In this document: positions 19,347-35,200 of the stretch, one piece after another | Numbering within the stretch: the first letter of the stretch is position 1 | Layout of the letters: each line of letters starts with the position of its first letter | Source of the DNA: the human T2T-CHM13v2.0 reference genome, Homo sapiens | DNA: 64,000 nt | Reading direction: 5' to 3' (one strand) | Assembly (NCBI RefSeq): GCF_009914755.1 | Contig: NC_060935.1 | Program-made: the position numbers and the translations under genes | The notes under the pieces: generated by a model | The model's database searches: none | The model's input: only the letters and a program-made list of their open reading frames with translations | What the model was told of the DNA's origin: nothing

Positions 19347-20130
19347 ATTTTCTTTTTTTTAGAAAAGAAACCCTTCTTCTTAAGTTTTGCTTCTCAGACT
19401 TGGATTTATAATTCATCTGCAATTTATTTTTGAGTATGGTAAGAGACAGGGGTCTTATTATATATATTATACATATATAAAAATTTCATATTTTTTCATA
19501 AGATTAGCCTATTTTTCTAGCACCATTTATTAAATAATCAATTTTTCCATTTGAAATGCTATTTTTTTTTTTTTTGAGACAGGGTCTTACCCTGTCACCC
19601 AGGCTGGGAGTATAGCAGCACTATCTTGGCTCACTGCAACCACTGCTTCCCCAGTTCAAGTGATTCTCCTGCCTCAGCCTCCTGTTAGCTGAGATTACAT
19701 CGTGTGCCACCATGCCTGACTAATTTTTGTTTTTTGTTTTAGCAGAGATGGGGTTTCACCACGTTGGCCAGGCTCGTCTCAAACTCCCGACCTCAAGTGA
19801 TACGCTCGCCTTGGCCTCCCGTGGTGTTGGGATTATAGGCGTAAGCCACTGCACCCGGCCTGAAATACTACCTTTATTATACAGCTAGTTCTAACACATC
19901 TTGGTCTTTTTCTAGGTTCTTTGTTTTATTACTTATTTAGCTATCTCTGCACCAATACCACATTGCTTCACATATTACGGCTTTATACAGTTTTCATATC
20001 TAATAGGAAACTTACTAATATGCCTATCCAATATGTCGTCTTTTCTCCCATCTTGATTAACGGAATATCAATTTTATTTGGTGTAGCCGTGTCTTCAGCT
20101 CCAGGCAATGGATCATGATCAGACTAACCT

Positions 20131-20430
20131 AGGGGTCAGCAAACTATGGTCCATTGGCCAAACCCATTTTACTCCTGTTTTTGTGCAACCCATGAGCTAA
20201 GAATTGTTTCTACATTTTTAGAAAAATATGATGTGAAAATTATGTGAAGTTAATAGTTTAGTATCCACAATAAAGTTTTATTGTAACACAGCTACATTCA
20301 TTTACATACTGTCTATAGCTGTTTTCACACTAAAATGAGAATTGAGTAGTTATGATAGAGACTGTATGACTCTCAAAGCCTAAAATATTTACTACCTGGC
20401 TATTTACAGAAAAAATTTGCCAGTCCCTGG
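20131..20430 (+). mobile_element. MER58 hAT-Charlie element (second fragment, minus strand, at ~21415-21507)
   Basis: ggggtcagcaaactatgg...aataaagttttattg..acacagc...tttacagaaaaaatttgccagtccctg. Confidence 0.8.
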
Positions 20431-20868
20431 TCTATGCCAACCTTATATGCAGTTGGATGACAATGCACATAGAAGATTCTTCCAGAGGACACATTCAAGG
20501 GCTGCCAGATTGGCTAACCAGAGAACTTAGCCCAGCAGGATTTAATATCTTCTTTGAACCGATGATTTACATATTTTCCATTCTTCCCTTTCTCAAATGG
20601 GAACTTTCACTGCGATTATCCTGTTCCTTCTCTGCTACAGTACATCGGGTGTGTTGGGAGCAGATAATTGTCTTCTAGCCTTAGGTTGCTGGACCACAGG
20701 ATCCATATTCAGACCTAGCAAAAAGGATTTGCACATCACTCAGAGATCTTTCACTTCAGGCTGGTTTATTTTTATGTAAAGCGTACATAGGAGAAAAAGA
20801 GTGTGTTTGGATGATTGATTGCCAAAGAAGTCAACTGGCAGATAGTGTTAGTTGCTACACAATACTGA

Positions 20869-21237
<369 letters not shown>

Positions 21238-22591
21238 TAGAGACGGGGTTTCACTGTGTTAGCCAGGATGGTCTCAACCTCCTGACCTTGTGATCCACCC
21301 GCCTCGGCCTCTCAAAGTGCTGGGATTACAGGCGTGAGCCACCGCACCCAGTCCACTCTTTTTTTTCTGCTAGGGAAGACTTATAATCTCATTCTAGCCA
21401 ATGAAAATATGTAAATCAATGGGGTTTGCTGTGTTCCAATAAAACTTTATTTACAAAAACAGGTGGCAGACCTGATTTGGCCCATGAGCCATAGTCTACC
21501 AATCTCTTCCATAGAACACATAAGAAGAAAGAGGGTAATGGGGGGCTGATAGTCTCTGACATGGTATCTAATATGAATTGCTTTAAACTTTATAAGCAGT
21601 TAAACACATTTTTGTTAAATTTAGCCAATTGTACAATTTGGTCACTCAGTAAATGGTCAATATGTAAGTCAATTTGTGATCTTGTGAGTGAACTCTCTAA
21701 AAATTATATAAGTGGTTGTTTTCTGTACATAGGAGAGCTATTGATTTTTGTATATTGCTCTTGTATTCACCAATCATGCTCCTATTGTCTCTGATAGATT
21801 GTCCATAAAGTCTGTTGGATTTTCTATATGAAATATTAAACTATTTGGAAACAATGTGTTTTGTGTCTTTTCAATTCCTTAAATCTTATCTTGTGTTTTC
21901 TTACCTTTTTGCATTGGCTAAGTCCTGCAGTATAATTTCAAATAGAAAGTCCTGTCTTTAAGCAATCTTTTTTAAAGTTATTATCTAAAAAGATAATTGA
22001 TATATGCAGTGTACATGTATGTGAATATGCTTTATAAAGGGATTATCACAAAATAATTTATATAAATAAGCCTCCTGATTTATTATTATATAAATAATTT
22101 ATATAATTTATATAAATTATAATATCACCTTAATCATATTTTATCTTCGTTTGACCCTCCCAGCATTTTCCTGTGATTATACAAGTATTGTTATTCCTAT
22201 TTAACAAAATAGGAAAGTGATACCCAAAGAAATAACAAAATGGTACTTTTAATATTATAAATTATATTATATTATAGTCTCATAGTTGTGTGGGAGACTT
22301 TTTCTCTTCTCCCAGTCACATGCCTCAACTTACAAAATAGAAGCTCCCCCAGCTCTCTAACTTTCTTCCCCTCACAGGAGAAGGAGGGACTTAATTGATT
22401 GGAGAAATTATGAGAGCATGACTTCCATTGGTTGCATCACTATTAAGTGATGTAACATGTTAGAATTTAACATGTTATAATATGCCAGATGACTAGATCC
22501 ATTATCTTTTCTCTCTGACCACTTAAAAAAAAACATAGTCAAAGTGATGTTTATTGATTTTTCAAGTTCAAAGTCTAAAAGAATCTACTGA

Positions 22592-23129
<538 letters not shown>

Positions 23130-25438
23130 TAAGAAAAACCTAAATGAAAAAGTAAATTATATTCATGAAATGGAAGATTTAGCCATGTAATCAATTTTCT
23201 CTAAACAGATTTATAGATTCAATACAATTCCAATTAAAATCCTACCAGATGTTTGATGAAACTTGGTAATTTTATTCTAAAATAATCTATATAAAAATTC
23301 AAAGACTCAGTCGGATGCAGTGCTCACTCCTGTAATCCCAGCACTTCGGGAGGCCGAGGCAGGCGGATCACCTGAGGTCAGGAGTTTGAGACCAGCCTGG
23401 CCAACATGGTGAAATCCTGTCTCTACAAAAAATACTAAAATTAGCCAAGCGTGGTGGCGGACACCTGTAACCCCAGCTACTCAGGAGGCTGAGGCCGGAG
23501 AATCGCTTGAACCTGGGAGGCAGAGGTTGCAGTGAGCCGAGATTGTGCCACACTGCACTCCAGCCTGGGAGACAGAGAAAGACTCCATCTCAAAAAATAA
23601 AAACAAAACAAAACAAAAAATTCAGAGAGTCAAGAAAATCCAAGATGCTCTTGAGAAAGAACAAGGTAGAAGGACTTGGTTTCACAGATATCAAGGTTCA
23701 TTATAAAGCTAGAGGAATAATGACAATATTGTAATAGTAAAAAAATAGGCATATAGACCCCTCAAACCTAATATGCAGCTCAGCAGCAGACTATTGTCTT
23801 AATAAACCAATAATACATGACAGAGATGATGTTGCAGATCAGTGGGAAAACAACAGATCTTTTCAGTAAATAGTGGCAGACTAGTTAGTATCCATCAGAT
23901 AAACTGAAATTGAATTCCTGCCTCACAATATGCACATCACACATACCAATTAATTTCAAGTGTATTAAAGACCTAAATGCAAAAATTAAACCAGAAAGCT
24001 TTTAGAAAATAATAAACGTGGCTGGGCACATTGGCTCACGACTGTAATCCCAGCACTTTGGGAGGCCGAGTCAGGCAGATTGCTTGAGCCCAAGAGTTTA
24101 AGATCAGCCTGGGCAACATGGCGAAACCCTGTCTCTACAAAAAGTACAAAAATTAGCTGAGTATGGCAGAACACGGCTGGAGTCCCAGCTACTAAGGAGG
24201 CTGAGGTAGGAGGATTGCTTGAGCCTAGGAGGTCGAGGCTGCATCATGCCATTGCACTCCAGCCTGGGCAACAGAGCAAGACTTTGCCTCAAAAAAGGAA
24301 AAAAAGAAAATAATAAACACAATGTCTTCATGGTCTTGTGTAGACTCTATGGAAGATTTTTTTTTTTTTAACAAACAGGAAAAAGGCATAAATCTAAAGG
24401 ATGAGGAATAACAACTCTTTTATATCAAGATTCTGTCTTCATTAAAGTCACCATAAAGAGTGAAAAAACAAGCTACAAAATAAGAGAAGATATTTACAAC
24501 TCAACTATCTGATAAAGGAATAGTATCCAGGATCTATAAAGAACTCATTCAGGGCAGGTGCAGTGGGTCACACCTGTAATCCCAGCACTTTGGGAGGCTA
24601 AGGCAGGCAGATCACTTGAGAACAGGAGTTTGAAATCAGCCCGGGCAACATGGGTAAACCCCCGTCTCTACAAAAAAATACAAACGTTAGCCGGGTGTGG
24701 TGGTGGCACACGCCTGTAGCCTTAGCTACTTGGGAGACTGAGATGAAAGGATTACTTGAGCCCAAGAGTTTTAGGCTTCAGTGGGCCATGATCATGCCAC
24801 TGCACTCCAGCCTGGGTCACAGAGTGAGACCCTGTCTAAAAAACAAAAAACAGAAAGCCAAAAGAACTTGTTCAAATTAATTAGAAAAAAATTTTCAAAA
24901 GACTTAAACAGGTGCTTCATATTTATTGGCCAATGTTAATGTCCAATAAATAGATTATAAGCACTTAACCTCAATAGTCATGAGGGAAATGCAAATTAAA
25001 ACCACCACGAAATATATCCACATAGTTACCAGATTAACAAATATTTTATTTATTTATTTATTTTATTTTTGAGACAGAGTCTGGCTCTGTTGCCCAGGCT
25101 GGAATGTAGTAGCACAATCTGGGCTATCTGGAACCTCTGCCTCCTGGGTTCAAGATATTCTCCTGCTTCAGCCTCCTGAGTAGCTGGGATCAGATTAACA
25201 AGTATTTTAAAAGATTGTCTCCTAATCTTAAATACTGGCTAAAATGCTGAGCAACAGGAACTCTCATACACTACTGGGTAGAAGTATAAGAGAATCAATT
25301 TATTAAACTGTTTGGTAATAACTTCCAAAGGCAAACATAGGCAGACCCTATGACCAAGCAATTTCACTTCTAGGTGTATACCCAACAGAAATGCATATAA
25401 AAACATCATTATTGGAAATAGCTCAAAAGTGGAAACAC

Positions 25439-25776
<338 letters not shown>

Positions 25777-25902
25777 GGAAACACCCCAGATGTCCATCAA
25801 CAGAAGAACAGATAAATAAGTTTGTAGAGTATTTCTAAAACAAAATACTTAGCAATGAAAACTAATGAACCACAGCTGTACATGAAAATATGGTTAAATC
25901 TC

Positions 25903-26270
25903 TGATATGGTTAGGCTTTGTGTCCACCCAAATCTCATCTTGAATTATAATCCCCAGGTGTTGAGGGAGAGATCCGGTGGGAGGTAATTGGATCTTGGGG
26001 GCGGTTTTCCCCCATGCCTTTCTCGTGATAGTGAGTGAATTCTCACGAGAGCTGATGGTTTTATAAGGGGCTCTTCTGCTTTCCCTCTCTGACTTGCTCT
26101 CTCTCCTGCTGCCTTGTGAAGAAGGTGCTTGCTTCCCCTTCTGCCGTGGCTGTAAGTTTCCTGCGGCCTCCCCAGCCATGTGAAACTGTGAGTCAATGAA
26201 ATCTCCTTTGTTTATATATTACCCAGTCTTGTGTAATATCTTTATAGCAGTGTAAGAACGGACTAATACA
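25903..26270 (+). mobile_element. MaLR solo LTR (THE1/MST type)
   Basis: Termini tgatatggtt...ggactaataca; 5-bp TSD atctc on both sides. Confidence 0.92.
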
Positions 26271-26359
26271 ATCTCATAAACATATATAGTTGTTATAGGG
26301 TTTGTCAAGTTTTCCCTCCCAAGAGATCTATAGGTCATTTTAGTGGCCAGACTGTTCTC

Positions 26360-27020
26360 TAAATTCAAATTGGACCTAGTGTATAATTATTTAATTCTAG
26401 AGAGTCAGTACCAGCATGGGATGAAAGCCTCATGAGAAAGTAGATGTAGAAGCCACTGCAGGGGTCTAGGTGTGAGGGGTGCTCAATGGGGCCAGGGAAA
26501 ATTTTAGACCCTGATGTAAAGTTCATGGCACAAATGTTGTGCCCTGTTGGAGGCAGTAAGTTCTGCTGCTGTGGGAATTTACCAAGGGTTGGATGGAGAA
26601 GCTACTCAGAAACCTGAGACTCCCATGGGATGTGATTGGCAAAGACGCTGAATAATATTCCTGGTTCACTCCTGTCTGCATGTCTCTGTTCTGTTCTGGT
26701 TCCTCAGTAGTCGCTATTGCTGCCACAAATGCTGTTGACAGTATTTGGCTCAGCAGTTCTTGAACCACACCTGTACTTTGTGCTTGGTCAAGTTGAGCTT
26801 TTTAGCCAGTTTTTCCCTCTCTTTGGAGCTTTGAGTACAGGTTATCCTCAAAGAGTTTCCCCAACTCTTTCAGATGTTCCCACTATAGATGGTGCATTCC
26901 TGATGCTGTCTCTGATAAGGGGAGGGGGCCATAAGCCCAAGCTGCTTCTTGCATCCTTTACTCTTGCACAGCTCCCTCTTGGGTGCCAGTTGTCTGAGTC
27001 CTTTGCTCTGGTCAACACAG
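26360..27020 (-). pseudogene. Decayed processed PRD-class K50 homeobox pseudogene, TPRX-like
   Basis: Homeobox at 26908->26729 reads QHQECTIYS(fs)EHLKELGKLFEDNLYS(fs)SSKEREKLAKKLNLTKHKVQVWFKNC*AKYCQQH. Upstream ATG CAA GAA at 26954. No intron between Q46 and V47. TPRX-like C-terminal motif downstream. Confidence 0.85.
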
Positions 27021-30000
27021 CATGAAGCCAACTTTGGTCTTCCATATGTCTGCTTGGGTAATTATGCTCTGCAGAAATAATGCTCCCCATGTGCAGGTTT
27101 AAAGCCTAGTCTTTGAGGGTGATCCAATTCATGTTCTCTAATTCAATTTCCCAGAAATAGATACCGTTTTAACTCTTCCCTGACATATATGTCCATTTCC
27201 AAATTATTTCAGCATTTAAAAGAGCAAAAGAGGATGGGACACCCATCAAATCTCAACAATTTTTAAAGGCTGATCTGAGGCTTGAACCTCATTCTCTTGA
27301 CTCAAAGGCCAGCATGTGTTCTATTGCACATGCAGAGTCCGTTAGTTTCTTCCGATACTAGAAACCATTTACAGAGCCCCTTCTATTTATTGCCAGCAAT
27401 GGTGCTAATTGCTTTATATACATTATCTTATTTAGCCCTCACAACTCTATAAGATCCTATTATCCAAATTTTATATATGAAGCTTAGATAAGTGACTTGC
27501 TCAACTTCATAGAGCTGATGAGTGGAAGAGTTGGAATTTAAACTCAGATTGCTCTAATTACAAAGGTCCTGCTGCTAACCATTAAGTTATAATTTAATAA
27601 TAATAATAATGCTTTAACAATAATGAAGTAATGTTATAATCTAATAACAAAAGTAATACTGTGGTTGCCCATCATAACACTGTTGCATGGGCCTGAGATG
27701 CTTTATGATAGCCTTAGCTTTTCACAGTCCTCCCTTGGTATACACAGGGGATTTTTAAGTGTACAATATAGTATTGTCATCTGTAGGCACAGTAGCAGTG
27801 CTTTACCATACCTGGAGAGCATATTGTTCTCTTTATTGAGCAAATTAAATACTCCCACCTGACTCAGAAATGCTAAATTGCTAACAACCTCCCTAAGGCC
27901 TTATCCTCTTCCCTTTTCTTAAGAAACTTCTCTCTGAGCTACTAAGAACTAGATTAAAATAGAAGCTTTTAGCCAAGTGTGATGGCTCACACCTGTAATC
28001 CCAGCACTTTGGGAGGCTGAGGTGGGAGGACTGCTTGAGCCCAAGACTTCGAGACCAGCCTGGGTAACATGGTGAAACCGCATCTCTACTAAAATACAAA
28101 AATTAGCTGGGCACAGTAGTGTGCACTTGTAGTCCCAGCTACTTGAGGGGCTGAGGTGGGAGGATCGCTTCAGTTGAGCCTGGGAGGTGGAGGTTGCAGT
28201 GAGCCAAGATTGTGCCACTGCACTCCAGCCTGGGTGACACAGCGAGACTCTATTCCCCTCACACCCATAAATAAAAAAAAAAAAAAAAAAAAAAGAGAAG
28301 AAAAAAAATACAGGCTTTTCTCCACTGCCCTGACAAAACCCAAAATATACAGGTCATTATAATCAGTCAATACAAAAGTACTTATTAAGCACTTTCTGGT
28401 GTCTCCTACTGTACTAGACACAAACATAACCATAATAGTCAGTGTGGATTATCACAGAGAAAGCAGGCTTCTATGCAACTGATTAGTCAAGCCCCAGGCA
28501 TTTGTTGTGCTACCTTCAAGGCCTTATGAGAGCTCCTACCAATGTATAGACTTTTATGAGTTGACTGTGATAAGGAGGAAAGCATTGAAGGAAATGATTT
28601 TATGGGTAGGAAATTTGGCAAGGTAGGTTTTGTAAGTCGACTGTAGAGAGCTTAGGACATCTGTGAATCTCAGTGTTTCTCTTTCCAGCCCCCTGGAGAT
28701 GAATACCCTACTTTGAGAAAACAGTAGCTGGGTTCAGTTAAATAGCAACAGCTTTTGGTAATCAAAATAGCATGGAGAGATGGAGAAAGAAGCTTCCTCC
28801 TGCAACTTCACAAAGCTATTAAGAGTTAACTACACTGAGTAATCTCAGAGTCTAAGGCTATGTTGGTTCTCACACCAACAATGTCTGTAAAAGTTAAGTA
28901 ATGTTTTCTAAATACATCTCTCTCCTACCCTGTCCCATCCTGAGGTACAGCGCAATGAGTAAGGGAAGGGAGGGAACAGGCCTGTGTGTTTTGATAAAAA
29001 GTGACACTTCACAACTTTAAGGCCCACTGGCCTAAGATAATGAGTATGGAGTACCCAGACTTTTCATGCATTGTTTTCTCCCACTGTACCAGAGAAGTTC
29101 AAGGAATGAGTCACTTTTTGGTCTACAGAGTTAGAGCAAGTATATAAGCTTGGATCCTGTGATTGTAAATCCAGTTTGTTTTTTTCCCCACTGTTCCATA
29201 GCTGCTTTATGGAACATTGTCCCCAGGGCCCTAAAAAGGAGTAGCTGGGAAACATGCATTGCTTTCTATTCTGAAATTCTGAATACTACTGAATTCTATT
29301 ATGTGTAGGGCCCTATAATAGAGCTTCAAGATAAATATATGTGCACATGTTTACACATATGTATGTCTATATTAAGGTCCTTGGTTTTATTAGTAGTTTT
29401 AATCTACTTAGGAAGATAGGACATATTCATAAAAGAATTTAAAAAATAAAGTTCTGTGTGCTTAGCCCCAAATAAGTGATTTAGACCACAGAAGCATGGC
29501 AAGTAATGTGTTGCTAATATTGAAGATGCAAGTTTTGCAAATAATTTCCCTTTAGAACAAATAAGGATAATAAAGACATTCTCATTCACTTGCATGTCAG
29601 TATGCCTTCTTAAATTGGGGATAAAGAGGTAGAATTATGACACCAACTAGACAGAAATTACAAATTGTGCATAACAATAAATAATTTTACATATAAAATT
29701 AATCTATTAGATTTTTTTTTTCCTGTCGGGATGGGGAAAAGCCTGAAAATAGTTAATTTATACATAGAACTTTGGAATTTCCTAGGACAGACAATTATTG
29801 CAAGCTAATAATTTTAAAAATTGTATAACATGAGACAGAAGAGTACAGCTGCATCTTGATTGGAGTGAGGGATTTATGTGGACTGTAGGAGATTATGGGG
29901 AGTAAGAGGAAGGCTTCACTCCAGGCCCAAGAAATGCAACGGAAACTAACATTGGAAAAATGGTGGTTGTATGGCAGGAAGTTTTTACATTATCTCATTT

Positions 30001-30149
30001 AATAATTACATATATTATCTCATTTAATACTTACAAGAATCTGGGACAATTGGGATTGCTCTCTCAATTGTAAACACAAAGAAACTGATCTCAGGAGAGA
30101 AAAAGTAAATTGTCCAAGGTAAGCCATCTAGGAAATGAGATAGATTAAA

Positions 30150-30450
30150 TAAAGCCACAAATTCTTTTCAGCTCTTCTCATCAAGACCAATATTTTAAAA
30201 AGCTGGTCTAGCTTTTGGGAGGATGACAGTCCACATAGAAGTCACCCCAGTCAAGCAAGATATGTGAGGTCATGGGCAACCTTCCAGCCCAGCCAGCCCT
30301 CCTGCTGAATGCAGCAGTGTGAGCAAGCTCAGGTGATACCAACAGAGAAGCTGCCCAGCCAGTCCATGTAATCATGAGAAACAAGAAATTGCTGCTGTTC
30401 TAAGAGTCTGTGTTATAGAGTGGTTTGTTATATAGTAATCGATAACTGAA
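30150..30450 (+). mobile_element. Partial old MLT1 LTR
   Basis: gctgaatgcagc..gaagctgcccagc..atcatgagaaa..gtggtttgttat..gataactgaaa 3' end. Confidence 0.65.
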
Positions 30451-30737
30451 AGAGCCAGACTTTGACTTTAGGGCCTCCTTGTTCCAAAGCTGATGTTCTT
30501 TCCATAACACATACCACCATTTTGTCATCTATAACATAGAAGTCTTTGATAAAATAATCTATAAGTCTCCTCTGAATTCTTCATAAAATCATATTCCAGA
30601 CACACAGAATTGGAAAAGTCCAAGGTCTATTCGGATAACAGGAAGAAGGCAGTCTAAACAAGACAGAAGGTTGCTGTAGAAGTAATAGAAGAGTCTTTTT
30701 ATTTTCTTTTTTCTTTTTTTTTGAGACAGGATCTTGA

Positions 30738-31019
<282 letters not shown>

Positions 31020-31925
31020 TAATAGAGATGGGGTTTCACCATGTTGCCCAGGCTGGCCTTGAACTCCTGAGCTCAAGTGATCCACCCACCTCAGCCTTCC
31101 CTAGTGCTGGGAATACAGGCGTGAGCCACAGCACCCAGCCAAAAGAAGAGTCTTATATAGCGTAGTGATTCAGAGCAAGAGCTGGGTTTGAATCCTGGCT
31201 CCACCACTCAGTTGCTTTGTGACTTTGAACAAGTCATGTAACCTCCCTGTGCTTTGATATTCCCATCTGTTAAAGGGTAGTAGAAATAGAACCTTTCTCA
31301 CAACCTTGTTGTAAATGAGGTAACATATGGAAAAACTTAGGACAGGGACGCCAAGTGGACTGAGACCAGAGGCAGAGTGTAACCTGCCATTGAGGTGAGG
31401 GAAATGTCACAAAGGCAGTGTTTGATGCTGGTGATGAAGTTTGCCTATGGCAGTAGCACAGCCCTTCCAATCATGTAAGAGTCTGGGAAACTTTCGTGGA
31501 TGGACTACTGAATATTTTTTTGGCATCTCCAAGCAGAGAAGGCTTTTATTATAGTGATAGATGGTATAATGAGTGCTTTTAGGATAACAAATCCTCAACA
31601 GCTACATAATGTCTTCACCTATAAAGTATTTCACATCCTTTTGTCATTTGATGGCTACTGTGCAAATAATTAGGAACCACAGAGTCAGTGTTCTAGTCAT
31701 TCATTCAACAAATATTTATGCAACATTTCCTGGAGGAAATAACGGTAAAGGGAATAGGAATGACCTCTGTTCTTATAGAAATTATAGTAGAATGAAGAAA
31801 AGAGACCCAGTAAGCAGGCAATGATTGTCTAGAGTGCTAAATATTTTACTGGGGGAGGTGTGGAGTACTATGAGTTGCATATAGAAAGTATTCCTCCTAC
31901 ATATTTTATATTTTACCATCTGAAA

Positions 31926-32298
31926 TGATATGGTTTGGCTCTGTGTCCCACCCATATCTCATGTCAAATTGTAATCCCCAATGTTGGAGGTGGGGCCTGG
32001 TGGGAGGTAACTAAATCATGGGAGTGGTTTCTAATGGTTTAGCACCATCCCCCTAGTGCTGTCTCATGATAGAGTTCTCACAAGATCTGGTTGTTTTAGC
32101 ACCTCCCCACCACCTCTCCTGCTGGCCATGTGAAGATGGGCCTGTTTCCCCTTTGCCGTCATTGTAAGTTTCCTGAGGCCTCCCCAGAAACAAAAGCCCA
32201 TACAGCCTGCAGAAGCATGAGCTGATTAAACCTCTTTTCTTTATAAATTACCCAGTCTCAGGTAGTTATCTTTAGCAGTGTGAGAATGAACTAATACG
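31926..32298 (+). mobile_element. MaLR solo LTR (MSTA-like)
   Basis: Termini tgatatggtttggctctgtgtcc...gaactaatac; flanked by a 67-bp duplication. Confidence 0.92.
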
Positions 32299-35200
32299 TA
32301 TGGGGTACTATGAGTTGCTTATAGAAAGTATTCTTGGTATACATTTTATATATTACCTTCTGAAATAAAGTGATCTAAATGGATATCTGGAAGGTAAGTA
32401 GGAGTTAGCCAGGATGATGCCTGCAATTTTGCTACAAGTTAAGACTAGCTTAAATAGTGAACTCCTGCTAAAGAGCAGTGAAGAGAATACTGCATCAGTA
32501 GGATGGGATCTCTGGTATTGGAATTTCATTCCTGATAGCAGAGGATAAGAAAACTGCTAGCTGACTGGGATCCAGAGGTGACTAAATAGGAGTATAGTGA
32601 AGCTGACCTTGATAAATCCTCTTAAAAAGTGACCCAGAAAGACGAAAGAACCAGAAGAAGGTGAGATTAAGAGGTGAACTACATCTCTTAGGTTATAAAC
32701 ATGCAGAAAAACAAAGGATGGTATAATAGAAAAAACACAAGTCAGATGACCTACAATCTGATCTTGTCTTAACCATGAACTCCCTTTTAGTGTATGATGT
32801 TAGATAATAAATTTTCCCTCTCTGGGACTCTGGCTTGTCCATTTATAAGATATGTGAGTTGGACTGCTTAAAAGGAGACAAGAAGGGGATGCTACAGTAC
32901 AAGAAGTGAAAGTGGTCAGACATGTAGTTCACAAACATTGCTCTCAAGCCGCAACCTGGCCAAAGCACAGAGGAATTTAGGACCTGACTTTGAGCAGGTG
33001 AAGTCATTTGCTATCAATCCTAGGAAGGGAATAAATTTTTCTAGACACAGGGCTCACTTCTCTGGTTATTTATTGCAGGTCTGCAGAGGAAAGCACACTG
33101 TGAGTTTACTTAGTTGCTTGTCCCTCTCCTGCACTTGGCACCCTTCTGTTCCCTTCCTTCTATTATAAGGAACTCAGGGTATATGAAAGAATGGTCCTAG
33201 AGGAGCACAGCCCAAACCAAAGCTAATTGATTGCTAATGGGAGGTCTCAGTGGGGGAATGATCTTTAGAAAATTGTAGTGGAAATCCTAGTACCTAGCCT
33301 TTCTTAGAACAGTACCTCCCTTCTTTTTGAACACTGATCCCCCACTTCAACTATATAGTTCCAGTAGGAGCTGGAAATCATAGAATCTCTCACCCTTGGC
33401 ACAGGGATGAACATGTCTCTTCCAGCCAGGGCCAAAGAGAAATTTTGCAAATTAGAGGTAAGGGGAAGGGCTCAGTCCCCCTCAGATAGCAAAAGTGTGA
33501 GATGGAGCCAGGAGGTATCGGTAGCCACATCCCTTGCAGTGTGGAGGAAGCCAGTCTGTAGTTGGTAGGCTGACAGATGGGGTGTGGTGGGGTGGGAGGT
33601 GGGGTGGGGATCGGGGGGAGGACAAGCATGCAATCTACCTTGTGGCATTATTGTGCCTATTTCCAGTTGTCCTGGAGGTCCAGCTATAACTTTACCCTTA
33701 CTTATATGAAAAAATAAATGTGTCTTTTGACATTTTGAGGTTTCTACCCTTAGCAACCAAAAAAGTATTGCTTGACCCAAAAATCATTAGTTTTCTGCCG
33801 GAGGTGACTACTTAACTATGTTCAGATGTAAGGTCACTCCTGGTCCTGGACCCCTTGTAGTCCAAGTTTCCTGGAATGGCCTATACTTCCCATGTGTTCA
33901 ATATTTTAATAAGTTTACCAAGTAATACTTCTAAACTACTCCGCATAATGACCCTCTGAGGTGGACAGGGTAGGGTTATCCCTATTTTACATCAAAAATA
34001 CTGGGGTGAAGTGACTTGCCAACATCGTGTAGTAAGTTAGAGGTAGAGCAAGGACTCAAACCCTGGACATGACTAGTACTCTATTATGACAAGCTCTCTG
34101 TCCACTTAGGCAAGAGCGTTGGAATGGCTGAGAATATGTTGCTTATTCATTCAACAAATACCATTGAGCCTGTGCTCGGGCCAAGCACCGTTCTGGGGCC
34201 CAGAGTACAGTGTCAAATGAGACACAGCCTCTGACTCACAAAAGCTGATAATCTAGACTGTGTATACACTAGTAAAAAGGCAATTAGAATAAAGTGTGGT
34301 AAATACCATGGTAGATGGAGTCCTTCTGGAACAGATAGGAGGGGCACTAAACCTGTTCTGATAAGAATTAGGAAAGGATTCTCAGCAAGGTCACTGCCAG
34401 TCCAGTACCTTTTTGTGAATCAGAGAAAAAAAGAGTGCTCTTTCCTTAAAACACCAACTGCCGGGACATTTTTATAAAAGCATATAAACCTGTAATATAT
34501 TTTCTGTGATCAGCACACCCTTGGTATGTGCAGCAGGCAACCAGTTCAACTGTGTGTGGCACCCTGCTTCCCAGAGGAAATAACATTGAAGCTGAGATCC
34601 AAAGGGTGAGTGTGTGTTAGCAGACAGCCTACCTGTCGGCTCCAGGCCTGTCTGAGAATTGGGTCTGCTGCCAAACATGCCATTATTTATTTAGGCAGCA
34701 CAGCCCTCCTGTGGCTGCTCCTATGTCCTCACTGACACCACAATCCCTTTTTTCTTTGCTTCAGTCTGGTCTCCCATGGATCCCAGAGGACTCTCTCCCT
34801 GCAGGTTATTCAATCTCCCTAGACCTGTTTGTCTACCAGGGACTAGATTAAGAGTTTGTGTTTCTGGACCGTAGCCCTCAGTGGTGCTTAATTCAAAAAG
34901 AAACCCCAAGAGAAAACCCGATCCTCTCTGGGAGGGCCCAGCCTAGAGGATAAAGTATCTAAAGGCCTAGGGATTGTACAGCCTTTTCCTGATTGGCTGC
35001 TAATTATGTTCTTCTCTTGACTGCAGTTTTTCATTTCGTTTTGGTTTATCTGTGGCATTTTCTGAGCTCAACGAGAGAAATAAATAAGAAGGGAGCATGC
35101 AACCCTGTTGTTGTTAGAATCCTAAAATAGTAGGACTGGGGGAAAAAAAAACAGTATGCTCTCCCTTCCCAGCATTCTTATCTAGGTGAAAACAAACTGC

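What the first reader, a model, noticed from the sequence alone, without database searches (positions are those of the whole stretch)
26729..26954. Hidden TPRX-like homeobox retro-pseudogene, invisible in the ORF track
Seen in sequence: minus strand 26908->26729 is exactly 180 nt. With one 1-nt deletion (codon 10) and one 1-nt insertion (~codon 27) it reads QHQECTIYSxEHLKELGKLFEDNLYSSSKEREKLAKKLNLTKHKVQVWFKNC*AKYCQQH. Hallmark residues L16, F20, Y25, R31, L34, L38, L40, W48, F49, K50 and N51 are in register. The lost arginines look like CpG decay (R5 TGC, R52 TGC, R53 TGA, R2 CAT). Established: K50 with VQVWFKNRRAK marks the OTX/CRX-derived PRD class. The reconstructed N-arm RQRQERTIYS and upstream AGG ATG CAA GA..GGCCCCCTCCCC resemble recalled TPRX1/2 (MQDPG..GPPL..RRQRQERTVY), which are eutherian embryonic-genome-activation genes. 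The PRD-class intron between residues 46 and 47 is absent. Inference: this is an old processed retrocopy of an ancestral TPRX mRNA, implying germline or early-embryo expression of the parent. I do not recall a TPRX pseudogene catalogued at this locus.
Basis: partly seen in the sequence, partly recalled or inferred. Interest (0 to 1): 0.85.

Follow-up and report, generated by a model that had tools for sequence, protein, structure and literature searches.

The report
Old TPRX homeobox processed pseudogene
This is a decayed, intron-less copy of an early-embryo homeobox gene of the TPRX family that was pasted into chromosome 11 long ago; it is a dead gene relic of an ordinary kind, missing from the RefSeq annotation.

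Summary
On the minus strand, 26908-26729 is a 180-nt homeobox broken by a 1-nt loss (about codon 9/10), a 1-nt gain (26831) and a TGA at codon 53. The 33-residue C-terminal piece alone passes Pfam Homeodomain (E 4.6e-9, 36.4 bits, cut-off 22.9).

The TPRX reading is supported:
- nhmmer aligns a TPRX1 exon-joined mRNA (E 1.9e-13) and TPRXL (E 7.7e-19) from just before the ATG through the homeobox. A second, collinear hit covers the TPRX C-terminal region.
- The ATG (26954) lies 25 nt before the TPRX1 exon 1/2 junction. That junction and the homeodomain 46/47 junction are both uninterrupted, so two introns are missing.
- In a 30-homeodomain ML tree, chr11 sits inside the TPRX branch (100/98). 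AU tests reject CRX/OTX and ARGFX/DPRX/LEUTX (p 0.010 each).

It looks old: CpG o/e is 0.06, and K2P to TPRX1/TPRXL is 0.44-0.48, against 0.21 between those two. It has no tetrapeptide array. The age cannot be fixed without other mammalian genomes.

It is absent from RefSeq and from the 2007 and 2011 homeobox catalogues. Two more unannotated TPRX-like relics turned up on chr2 and chr3/chr15. Verdict: real, ordinary, low interest.

The parts
26955..26990 (-). Last bases of the 5' UTR remnant (limit of detectable homology)
   Evidence: nhmmer alignments start at 26970 (TPRX1 mRNA), 26984 (chr3 relic) and 26990 (chr15 copy). The apparent extension to 27250 against TPRXL was not significant when tested alone.
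26952..26954 (-). Start-codon remnant (ATG CAA GA., as in TPRX1 and TPRXL)
   Evidence: The same ATG context is found in TPRX1 exon 1, TPRXL and the chr2 relic. The chr3 relic has ATA there.
26929..26930 (-). Position equivalent to the TPRX1 coding exon 1/exon 2 junction, uninterrupted here
   Evidence: The TPRX1 ATG-to-donor distance is 25 nt, and exon 2 starts GCCC. chr11 has 25 nt from the ATG and then GCCCC without a break.
26729..26908 (-). Homeobox remnant, 60 codon equivalents, K50 paired-like type
26880..26882 (-). First frameshift (one base missing, codon 9 or 10)
   Evidence: Frame change. The nhmmer alignment places a 1-nt gap here.
26831..26831 (-). Second frameshift (one extra base after codon 26)
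   Evidence: Frame change back. nhmmer places an insert here.
26750..26752 (-). In-frame TGA at homeodomain codon 53 (CGN in TPRX1 and TPRXL)
26768..26773 (-). Homeodomain codons 46/47, the PRD-class intron position, uninterrupted here
   Evidence: TPRX1, TPRX2, CRX, OTX1/2, PITX1-3, GSC, GSC2, DMBX1, ARGFX, DPRX and LEUTX are all split here in the reference. chr11 reads straight through.
26543..26588 (-). Post-homeobox block matching the TPRX 'ILPAAEP.ICSLHQ' region
   Evidence: The same block is hit in TPRX2 (z 3.9), TPRX1 (z 1.0, weak) and TPRXL (z 0.6, weak, but at the same motif), and strongly in the chr2 (z 11.2) and chr3 (z 6.8) relics. It lies at a similar distance from the homeobox in each.
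26376..26542 (-). Remnant of the TPRX C-terminal conserved region
   Evidence: Second, collinear nhmmer hits: TPRXL E 0.0047 (26542-26376) and TPRX1 mRNA E 0.0071 (26606-26395).

Best explanation
A spliced mRNA of a TPRX-family homeobox gene was reverse-transcribed and inserted on what is now human 11q13.4, about 19 kb beyond the 3' end of KCNE3 and on the same strand. TPRX genes are CRX-derived, K50 paired-like genes whose living members are expressed in cleavage-stage embryos.

The copy had no promoter of its own that can be seen, and it has decayed neutrally since. It has lost almost all its CpGs (turning Arg codons into Cys, His and stop), picked up frameshifts, stops and small deletions, and was later flanked or cut by an LTR-type repeat and Alus. 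It does nothing today that the sequence shows.

Shown by tools: the homeobox remnant; TPRX affinity by DNA profile, N-terminus, post-homeobox blocks and tree; the absence of two parental introns; and the disabling lesions.

Inferred: retroposition through LINE-1 machinery in the germ line or early embryo; an old, probably pre-anthropoid and possibly early-placental date; and lack of function.
For: - Pfam homeodomain on one fragment: E 4.6e-9.
- nhmmer against a TPRX1 exon-joined mRNA: E 1.9e-13, mRNA 46-308 to window 26970-26718. Against TPRXL: E 7.7e-19. Second collinear C-terminal hits at E 0.007 and 0.005.
- Control ranking of nhmmer scores on the same target: TPRXL 57.2, chr3 relic 54.2, chr15 copy 50.1, chr2 relic 40.3, TPRX1 mRNA 36.9. 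Well below these come OTX2P1 25.2, DPRXP3 15.4, DPRXP4 14.2, ARGFXP1 13.3, DPRXP2 11.9, DPRXP6 10.6, ARGFXP2 9.6, DPRXP5 1.7 and OTX2P2 0.3. DPRXP1 and DPRXP7 gave no listed hit.
- blastn: the only alignment that spans almost the whole homeobox is to TPRXL (174 nt, 67%, E 6.6e-8).
- ATG context, and an uninterrupted exon 1/2 junction at 25 nt.
- Uninterrupted 46/47 junction.
- ML tree of 30 homeodomains: the branch holding the 18 TPRX rows plus chr11 has support 100/98.
- AU tests reject chr11 with CRX/OTX (p 0.0103) and with ARGFX/DPRX/LEUTX (p 0.0101).
- DNA tree of 15 human rows: TPRX1, TPRX2, TPRXL, chr11, chr3 and chr2 group at 91/93.
- Age indicators: CpG o/e 0.06, against 0.30 for TPRXL and 0.61 for TPRX1. 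K2P from chr11 to TPRXL is 0.44 and to TPRX1 0.48, against 0.21 between TPRXL and TPRX1.
- No tetrapeptide array lies between the mid block and the C-terminal block. The array is present in the tarsier and anthropoid TPRX proteins fetched and absent from the whale, sheep, mole and cat proteins.
Against: - Plain homeodomain identity does not separate TPRX from CRX: best is cat TPRX at 28/57, CRX is 26/57, human TPRX1 is 22/57.
- The last five homeodomain positions look more like CRX/OTX than like human TPRX1.
- The chr11 terminal branch is long (1.31) and its composition deviates, so its exact place in the tree is unsure.
- The mid-block match to TPRX1 and TPRXL is not significant taken alone (z 1.0 and 0.6). 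The C-terminal hits are only E about 0.005-0.007.
- No poly(A) tail and no target-site duplication were found. Of the 7 direct-repeat families, two are duplications flanking the two Alus, two are Alu-internal and three are short two-copy matches that do not bracket the relic.
- A PARGFX sequence was never obtained, so that family was not compared directly.
- A primate-age origin is not rejected (AU p 0.231).
Confidence: 0.85

Rival explanations
1. It is a retrocopy of a different CRX-derived gene. One candidate is PARGFX, which humans have lost and of which Maeso et al. 2016 say a retroposed copy exists in primate genomes. Another is one of the 'ghost' CRX duplicates that paper infers.
For: - Maeso et al. 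2016 (PMC4904359; passages read) report a retroposed PARGFX copy in primates and two ghost duplicates.
- chr11 keeps CRX/OTX-like states at the end of the homeodomain, and OTX1 gives an 82% match over 44 nt there.
- Identity to CRX equals that to most TPRX.
Against: - The tree puts chr11 within TPRX at 100/98. AU tests reject the ARGFX/DPRX/LEUTX and CRX/OTX placements at p 0.010.
- The ATG context, the 25-nt first coding exon, the mid block and the C-terminal block all match TPRX genes.
- ARGFX retro-pseudogenes score only 9.6-13.3 in nhmmer, against 37-57 for TPRX members.
- The PARGFX sequence itself was not available, so the exclusion is indirect.
Confidence: 0.07
2. It is a TPRX retrocopy, but a young one (primate-specific, of TPRX1 or TPRX2) that only looks old because of fast local decay.
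For: - The AU test does not reject chr11 grouped with the primate TPRX rows (p 0.231).
- The chr11 terminal branch in the DNA tree is only 0.12.
- The homeodomain has only 60 columns.
Against: - K2P to TPRX1 and TPRXL is about twice the TPRXL-TPRX1 distance.
- CpG o/e is 0.06, against 0.30 in TPRXL.
- There is no tetrapeptide array, although tarsier and anthropoid TPRX have one.
- The free tree places chr11 outside the haplorhine clade (87/86) and outside the TPRXL-plus-anthropoid clade (95/93). Sister to TPRXL is rejected at p 0.034.
Confidence: 0.2
3. It has been co-opted, for example as part of a non-coding transcript or a regulatory element near KCNE3.
For: It lies on the same strand as KCNE3, about 19 kb downstream (operators' annotation). 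The related chr2 relic sits inside an annotated lncRNA.
Against: No RefSeq transcript or functional element overlaps 20000-34000 of the window. The reading frame is destroyed. No expression or conservation data were available.
Confidence: 0.03
4. It is a chance resemblance, not a real homeobox relic.
For: Two of the 3 frame pieces gave no Pfam hit on their own.
Against: E-values of 4.6e-9 (Pfam, one piece), 1.9e-13 and 7.7e-19 (nhmmer), and collinear matches over about 600 nt.
Confidence: 0.01

Closest known systems
TPRXL (3p25.1), the known intron-less TPRX retrocopy
   Same: Both are intron-less and have the same ATG context and N-terminal peptide layout, a K50 homeobox and a C-terminal block. 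TPRXL is the best DNA match to chr11 (nhmmer 57.2 bits; blastn 174 nt at 67%).
   Different: TPRXL keeps an open homeodomain frame, a poly-Q/tetrapeptide-derived tract and CpG o/e 0.30, and is annotated and transcribed. chr11 is frame-broken, lacks any repeat tract, has CpG o/e 0.06 and is unannotated. Sister relationship to TPRXL has AU p 0.034.
TPRX1 / TPRX2 (19q13.33, flanking CRX)
   Same: N-arm RQ.QE.T[VI]Y, Y at position 8, a 25-nt first coding exon, the mid block and the C-terminal block.
   Different: The parent genes have introns after codon 8 and at homeodomain 46/47, plus a long PIPG-type repeat array. Their homeodomains are identical to each other and only 22/57 identical to chr11.
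TPRX1P1 / TPRX1P2 (10q22.3)
   Same: They are named retrotransposed TPRX pseudogenes in Holland et al. 2007 (PMC2211742; passages).
   Different: That paper states that they lack a homeobox. In nhmmer, TPRX1P1 matched the window only through Alu sequence plus two weak hits outside the homeobox. TPRX1P2 is not in the RefSeq gene table and was not examined.
Unannotated TPRX-like relics on chr3 (ULK4 intron, plus 4 chr15 duplicates) and chr2 (127.46 Mb)
   Same: Both share the intron-less layout, ATG context, homeobox and post-homeobox block. K2P to chr11 is 0.40 for each. chr11 and chr3 pair in the DNA tree at 87/91.
   Different: Their flanks differ, so they are separate insertions. Both have larger deletions inside the homeobox (149 and 174 nt left).
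Other ETCHbox and OTX retro-pseudogenes (DPRXP1-7, ARGFXP1-2, OTX2P1-2)
   Same: They are the same kind of object: processed pseudogenes of germline- or embryo-expressed paired-like homeobox genes.
   Different: They belong to different parent families. nhmmer scores against chr11 are 0.3-25, against 37-57 for TPRX members.

Membership tests
Homeodomain (Pfam PF00046) | Profile match above the curated cut-off | tested here: met
   The C piece alone gives 36.4 bits against a cut-off of 22.9, E 4.6e-9, profile positions 26-50. The other two pieces gave 0 families.
PRD class, K50 paired-like | Lysine at homeodomain position 50 within WFKN, and paired-like helix 3 | tested here: met
   VQVWFKN is in register. 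This feature is shared with OTX, CRX, PITX, GSC and DMBX1, so it is not family-specific.
TPRX family | Homeodomain groups with TPRX in a phylogeny | tested here: met
   The branch holding 18 TPRX rows plus chr11 has support 100/98. AU tests reject CRX/OTX (p 0.0103) and ARGFX/DPRX/LEUTX (p 0.0101). PARGFX is not in the tree.
TPRX family | Short first coding exon beginning MQ[DE]P.. and N-arm RQRQERT[VI]Y | tested here: met
   ATG CAA GA., 25 nt to the junction, and an N-arm with two CpG-type changes. That this layout is TPRX-specific rests on the human paralogues and the 12 further proteins fetched, not on a curated definition.
TPRX family | Post-homeobox mid block and C-terminal block | tested here: inconclusive
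   Collinear nhmmer hits at E 0.0047 and 0.0071. Mid block z is 3.9 (TPRX2), 1.0 (TPRX1) and 0.6 (TPRXL).
TPRX family | Tetrapeptide (PIPG-like) repeat array that gave the family its name | tested here: not met
   No array lies between 26543 and 26542. The array is also absent from the whale, sheep, mole and cat TPRX-like proteins, so it defines primate members, not the family.
Processed pseudogene (retrocopy) | Parental introns precisely absent | tested here: met
   Both of the 2 coding introns of TPRX1 are absent: the exon 1/2 junction and the homeodomain 46/47 junction.
Processed pseudogene (retrocopy) | 3' poly(A) tract | tested here: not met
   No A-run follows the C-terminal remnant. An LTR-type repeat starts at 26275. 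A lost tail is expected for an old copy or one truncated by a later insertion.
Processed pseudogene (retrocopy) | Target-site duplications | tested here: inconclusive
   One search found 7 direct-repeat families in 24700-27300. Two are duplications flanking the two Alus (14 and 19 nt), two are Alu-internal and three are short two-copy matches. None brackets the relic, and its 3' end is not defined.
Processed pseudogene (retrocopy) | Disabling lesions, no open frame | tested here: met
   Two frameshifts and one stop within the homeobox, a further frame change and an 11-nt shortfall between the ATG and the homeobox, and stops downstream.
PARGFX retrocopy (Maeso et al. 2016) | Closest to PARGFX; Otx-specific domain after the homeodomain | not testable with these tools
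   No PARGFX sequence was reached in 3 of 3 protein searches. No match of the post-homeobox region to the ARGFX, LEUTX, CRX or OTX loci appeared in the 45 best rows (cut-off E 20).

The most novel reading that the evidence does not exclude
The chr11 relic is one of at least three independent, uncatalogued TPRX retrocopies (chr11, chr2, chr3) that date from around the base of placental mammals. On this reading they are fossils of the TPRX mRNA from soon after it split from CRX. They would predate the primate tetrapeptide expansion and the TPRX1/TPRX2 gene conversion. They would also give direct evidence that TPRX was already transcribed in the germ line or cleavage embryo about 100 million years ago.
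Probability: 0.35. Interest if true: 0.4.

Novelty: new member of a known kind. Interest (0 to 1): 0.27.

Why it matters
ETCHbox genes (TPRX, ARGFX, DPRX, LEUTX, PARGFX) evolve fast, and TPRX1 and TPRX2 blur each other by gene conversion. Old neutral retrocopies are therefore among the few records of their earlier states. They are also indirect proof of germline or early-embryo expression, an argument already made in general terms by Lewin et al. 2021.

One more such relic adds little by itself. Its main practical value is as an annotation gap in RefSeq. With the chr2 and chr3 relics, it could also serve as an outgroup or calibration point for TPRX evolution.

Tried and rejected
- Whole-genome DNA search with the locus found only itself.
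- Genome-wide searches with PF00046 and with the mole TPRX-like protein were swamped by HOX and DUX4 copies. Each scored only 150 of its 1257 or 1414 candidates. One search showed no TPRX-type locus at all. In one search TPRXL was the top hit, but no further TPRX-like relic appeared.
- The middle piece as a protein query found only itself.
- An apparent 5' extension of homology to TPRXL (to 27250) was tested alone and gave no hit in the window or in the TPRX1, TPRX2, chr2 or chr3 loci. I rejected it.
- A marginal '3' UTR' hit at 25265-25193 (E 0.02) lies in what I recognise, from recall and not from a tool, as an old L1 3' end. I did not count it.
- Protein searches reached only primates at first: 1 hit, then 24 of 154 candidates. 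The profile search gave 52 of 1095 candidates, including 7 non-primate rows that I used (whale, sheep, mole, cat x2, tenrec, squirrel). PARGFX was never reached.
- Rows dropped from the tree: the macaque TPRXL fragment (P0001, lacks helix 3), Aotus P0015, PITX3 (identical to PITX2), and the non-TPRX hits P0048-P0053 except cat P0050.
- I did not open supplements. Lewin et al. 2021, Table S3a/b (human ETCHbox retrocopies and their positions), and the additional files of Maeso et al. 2016 may already list this locus or the PARGFX retrocopy.
- Papers. PMC2211742, PMC4904359, PMC8208926 and PMC3141429: passages found by term search only. All others: search listings only. Booth and Holland 2007 (Gene) was not seen. 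It is cited only through Holland et al. 2007.
- The claim of 'no chr11 TPRX locus in print' rests only.
- The family names of the LTR-type repeat at 25865-26275 (MaLR-like) and of the L1 are recalled, not tool results.

Full report
**What is there.** On the minus strand, 26908-26729 is a 180-nt stretch that reads as a homeodomain in three frame pieces. One base is missing at about 26882-26880, one base is extra at 26831, and codon 53 is TGA (26752-26750). The ORF list shows only fragments of 20-80 aa, which is why an ORF view hides it. The 33-residue C-terminal fragment alone matches Pfam Homeodomain at E 4.6e-9 (36.4 bits, cut-off 22.9). The two other fragments gave nothing on their own. The stretch 26276-27966 is not repeat-masked and carries no RefSeq feature.

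**Which family.** I fetched the human K50 paired-like genes and their named pseudogenes from the same reference and compared them in scripts.
- tblastn showed that the N-arm and the residues before it match TPRX1, TPRX2 and TPRXL.
- blastn gave an alignment spanning almost the whole homeobox only with the intron-less TPRXL (174 nt, 67%, E 6.6e-8). All other genes matched only the last 25-44 nt around helix 3.
- nhmmer with an exon-joined TPRX1 mRNA aligned mRNA 46-308 to window 26970-26718 (E 1.9e-13). TPRXL gave E 7.7e-19. Both gave a second, collinear hit in the TPRX C-terminal region (window 26606-26395 and 26542-26376; E 0.007 and 0.005).
- As a control, retro-pseudogenes of other families scored far lower on the same target: OTX2P1 25.2, DPRXP2-6 1.7-15.4, ARGFXP1/2 13.3/9.6, OTX2P2 0.3. 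TPRX members scored 37-57.
- A short block after the homeobox (26588-26543) aligns to the 'ILPAAEP.ICSLHQ' region of TPRX2 (z 3.9). It aligns weakly to the same spot in TPRX1 and TPRXL (z 1.0 and 0.6).

**Phylogeny.** Three protein searches yielded primate TPRX1/2 proteins plus TPRX-like proteins of tarsier, sperm whale, sheep, mole, cat, tenrec and squirrel.
- In an ML tree of 30 homeodomains (60 columns), the 18 TPRX rows plus chr11 form one branch with support 100/98.
- chr11 falls in the unresolved base of that group. It is outside the haplorhine clade (87/86) and outside the TPRXL-plus-anthropoid clade (95/93).
- AU tests reject chr11 with CRX/OTX (p 0.0103) and with ARGFX/DPRX/LEUTX (p 0.0101). 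They marginally reject chr11 as sister of TPRXL (p 0.034). They do not reject chr11 with the primate rows (p 0.231).
- Plain identity is uninformative: cat TPRX 28/57, CRX 26/57, human TPRX1 22/57.
- The chr11 branch is long and compositionally odd, as expected for a decayed sequence.

**How it arose.** The TPRX1 first coding exon runs 25 nt from the ATG to its donor, and exon 2 starts GCCC. chr11 has ATG CAA GA. at 26954 and, exactly 25 nt later, continues into GCCCC without interruption. The homeodomain 46/47 junction is also uninterrupted in chr11, although it is split by an intron in every intron-bearing K50 gene examined. Two of two parental coding introns are therefore missing, which is the signature of a processed retrocopy. 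I found no poly(A) tail or target-site duplication. An LTR-type repeat begins at 26275, about 100 nt after the last detectable homology, followed by an Alu with its own 14-nt duplication. Retroposition implies that the parent was transcribed in the germ line or early embryo. That step is inference from established knowledge of processed pseudogenes.

**Age.**
- The relic retains 2 CpGs in 615 nt (o/e 0.06). TPRXL has 0.30 and the TPRX1 mRNA 0.61.
- K2P from chr11 is 0.44 to TPRXL, 0.48 to TPRX1, and 0.40 to each of the chr2 and chr3 relics. TPRXL and TPRX1 differ by 0.21.
- There is no tetrapeptide array. Among the proteins fetched, the array is present in tarsier and anthropoids and absent in whale, sheep, mole and cat.

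Together these point to an insertion well before TPRXL arose, possibly near the placental radiation. Without other mammalian genomes I cannot date it, and a primate-age origin is not formally excluded.

**What is known.** Holland et al. 2007 list TPRX1, TPRX2P, TPRX1P1, TPRX1P2 (both at 10q22.3, stated to lack a homeobox) and TPRXL, with nothing on chromosome 11. Zhong and Holland 2011 give the same set. RefSeq has no gene here. Maeso et al. 2016 mention a retroposed PARGFX copy in primates without giving its place in the passages I read. Lewin et al. 2021 state that every species has ETCHbox retrocopies and list the human ones in a supplementary table that I could not open. The locus may therefore be catalogued there. 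I rate it a new member of a known kind, with that caveat.

**By-products.** The C-terminal fragment used as a query also hit two other unannotated, intron-less TPRX-like relics. One is in a ULK4 intron on chr3, with four duplicated copies on chr15. The other is on chr2 at 127.46 Mb, inside a lncRNA. Both share the ATG context, homeobox and post-homeobox block with chr11 but not its flanks. chr11 and chr3 pair in a DNA tree at 87/91.

**Verdict.** The object is an ordinary ancient processed pseudogene with no sign of present function. Interest is low. It would be modestly higher if the relic proves to be a placental-age fossil of early TPRX.

Noticed in passing
L007:1363-1722 (G000 chr3, about 41.899 Mb, ULK4 intron); copies in L003-L006 (chr15 at 27.92, 28.39, 28.45 and 30.21 Mb): An unannotated intron-less TPRX-like homeobox relic with stops and a roughly 28-nt deletion in the homeobox. 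It was carried along with the ULK4 pseudogene segmental duplications to four places on chr15. nhmmer to chr11 scores 54.2 bits, and K2P is 0.40.
   Followed up: partly
L009:1355-1770 (G000 chr2, about 127.459 Mb, inside lncRNA LOC105373604): A second unannotated intron-less TPRX-like relic, with its own ATG context, a degraded homeobox and the shared post-homeobox block (z 11.2 against chr11).
   Followed up: partly
window 25865-26275: An LTR-type interspersed repeat (also present in a LEUTX intron) abuts the relic's 3' side. Only 26162-26275 is masked in the supplied repeat track. The family name (MaLR-like) is recalled, not tested.
   Followed up: no
window 25439-25770 and 25049-25190: A full Alu flanked by a perfect 14-nt duplication, and an Alu fragment flanked by a 19-nt duplication (18/19). 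Both were inserted into what looks (by recall) like an old L1 3' end on the minus strand.
   Followed up: no
P0013, P0039, P0044, P0045, P0050; P0015, P0040, P0046: Public names that look wrong for TPRX-like proteins: 'cone-rod homeobox X1', 'RAX2-like', 'MIXL1' (twice) and 'paired mesoderm homeobox 2-like'. Three gene models read through the 46/47 intron as coding sequence.
   Followed up: no
L019 and L021 (TPRX1, TPRX2): The human TPRX1 and TPRX2 homeodomains are identical over all 60 residues. This fits the gene conversion reported by Maeso et al. 2016 and Lewin et al. 2021.
   Followed up: no
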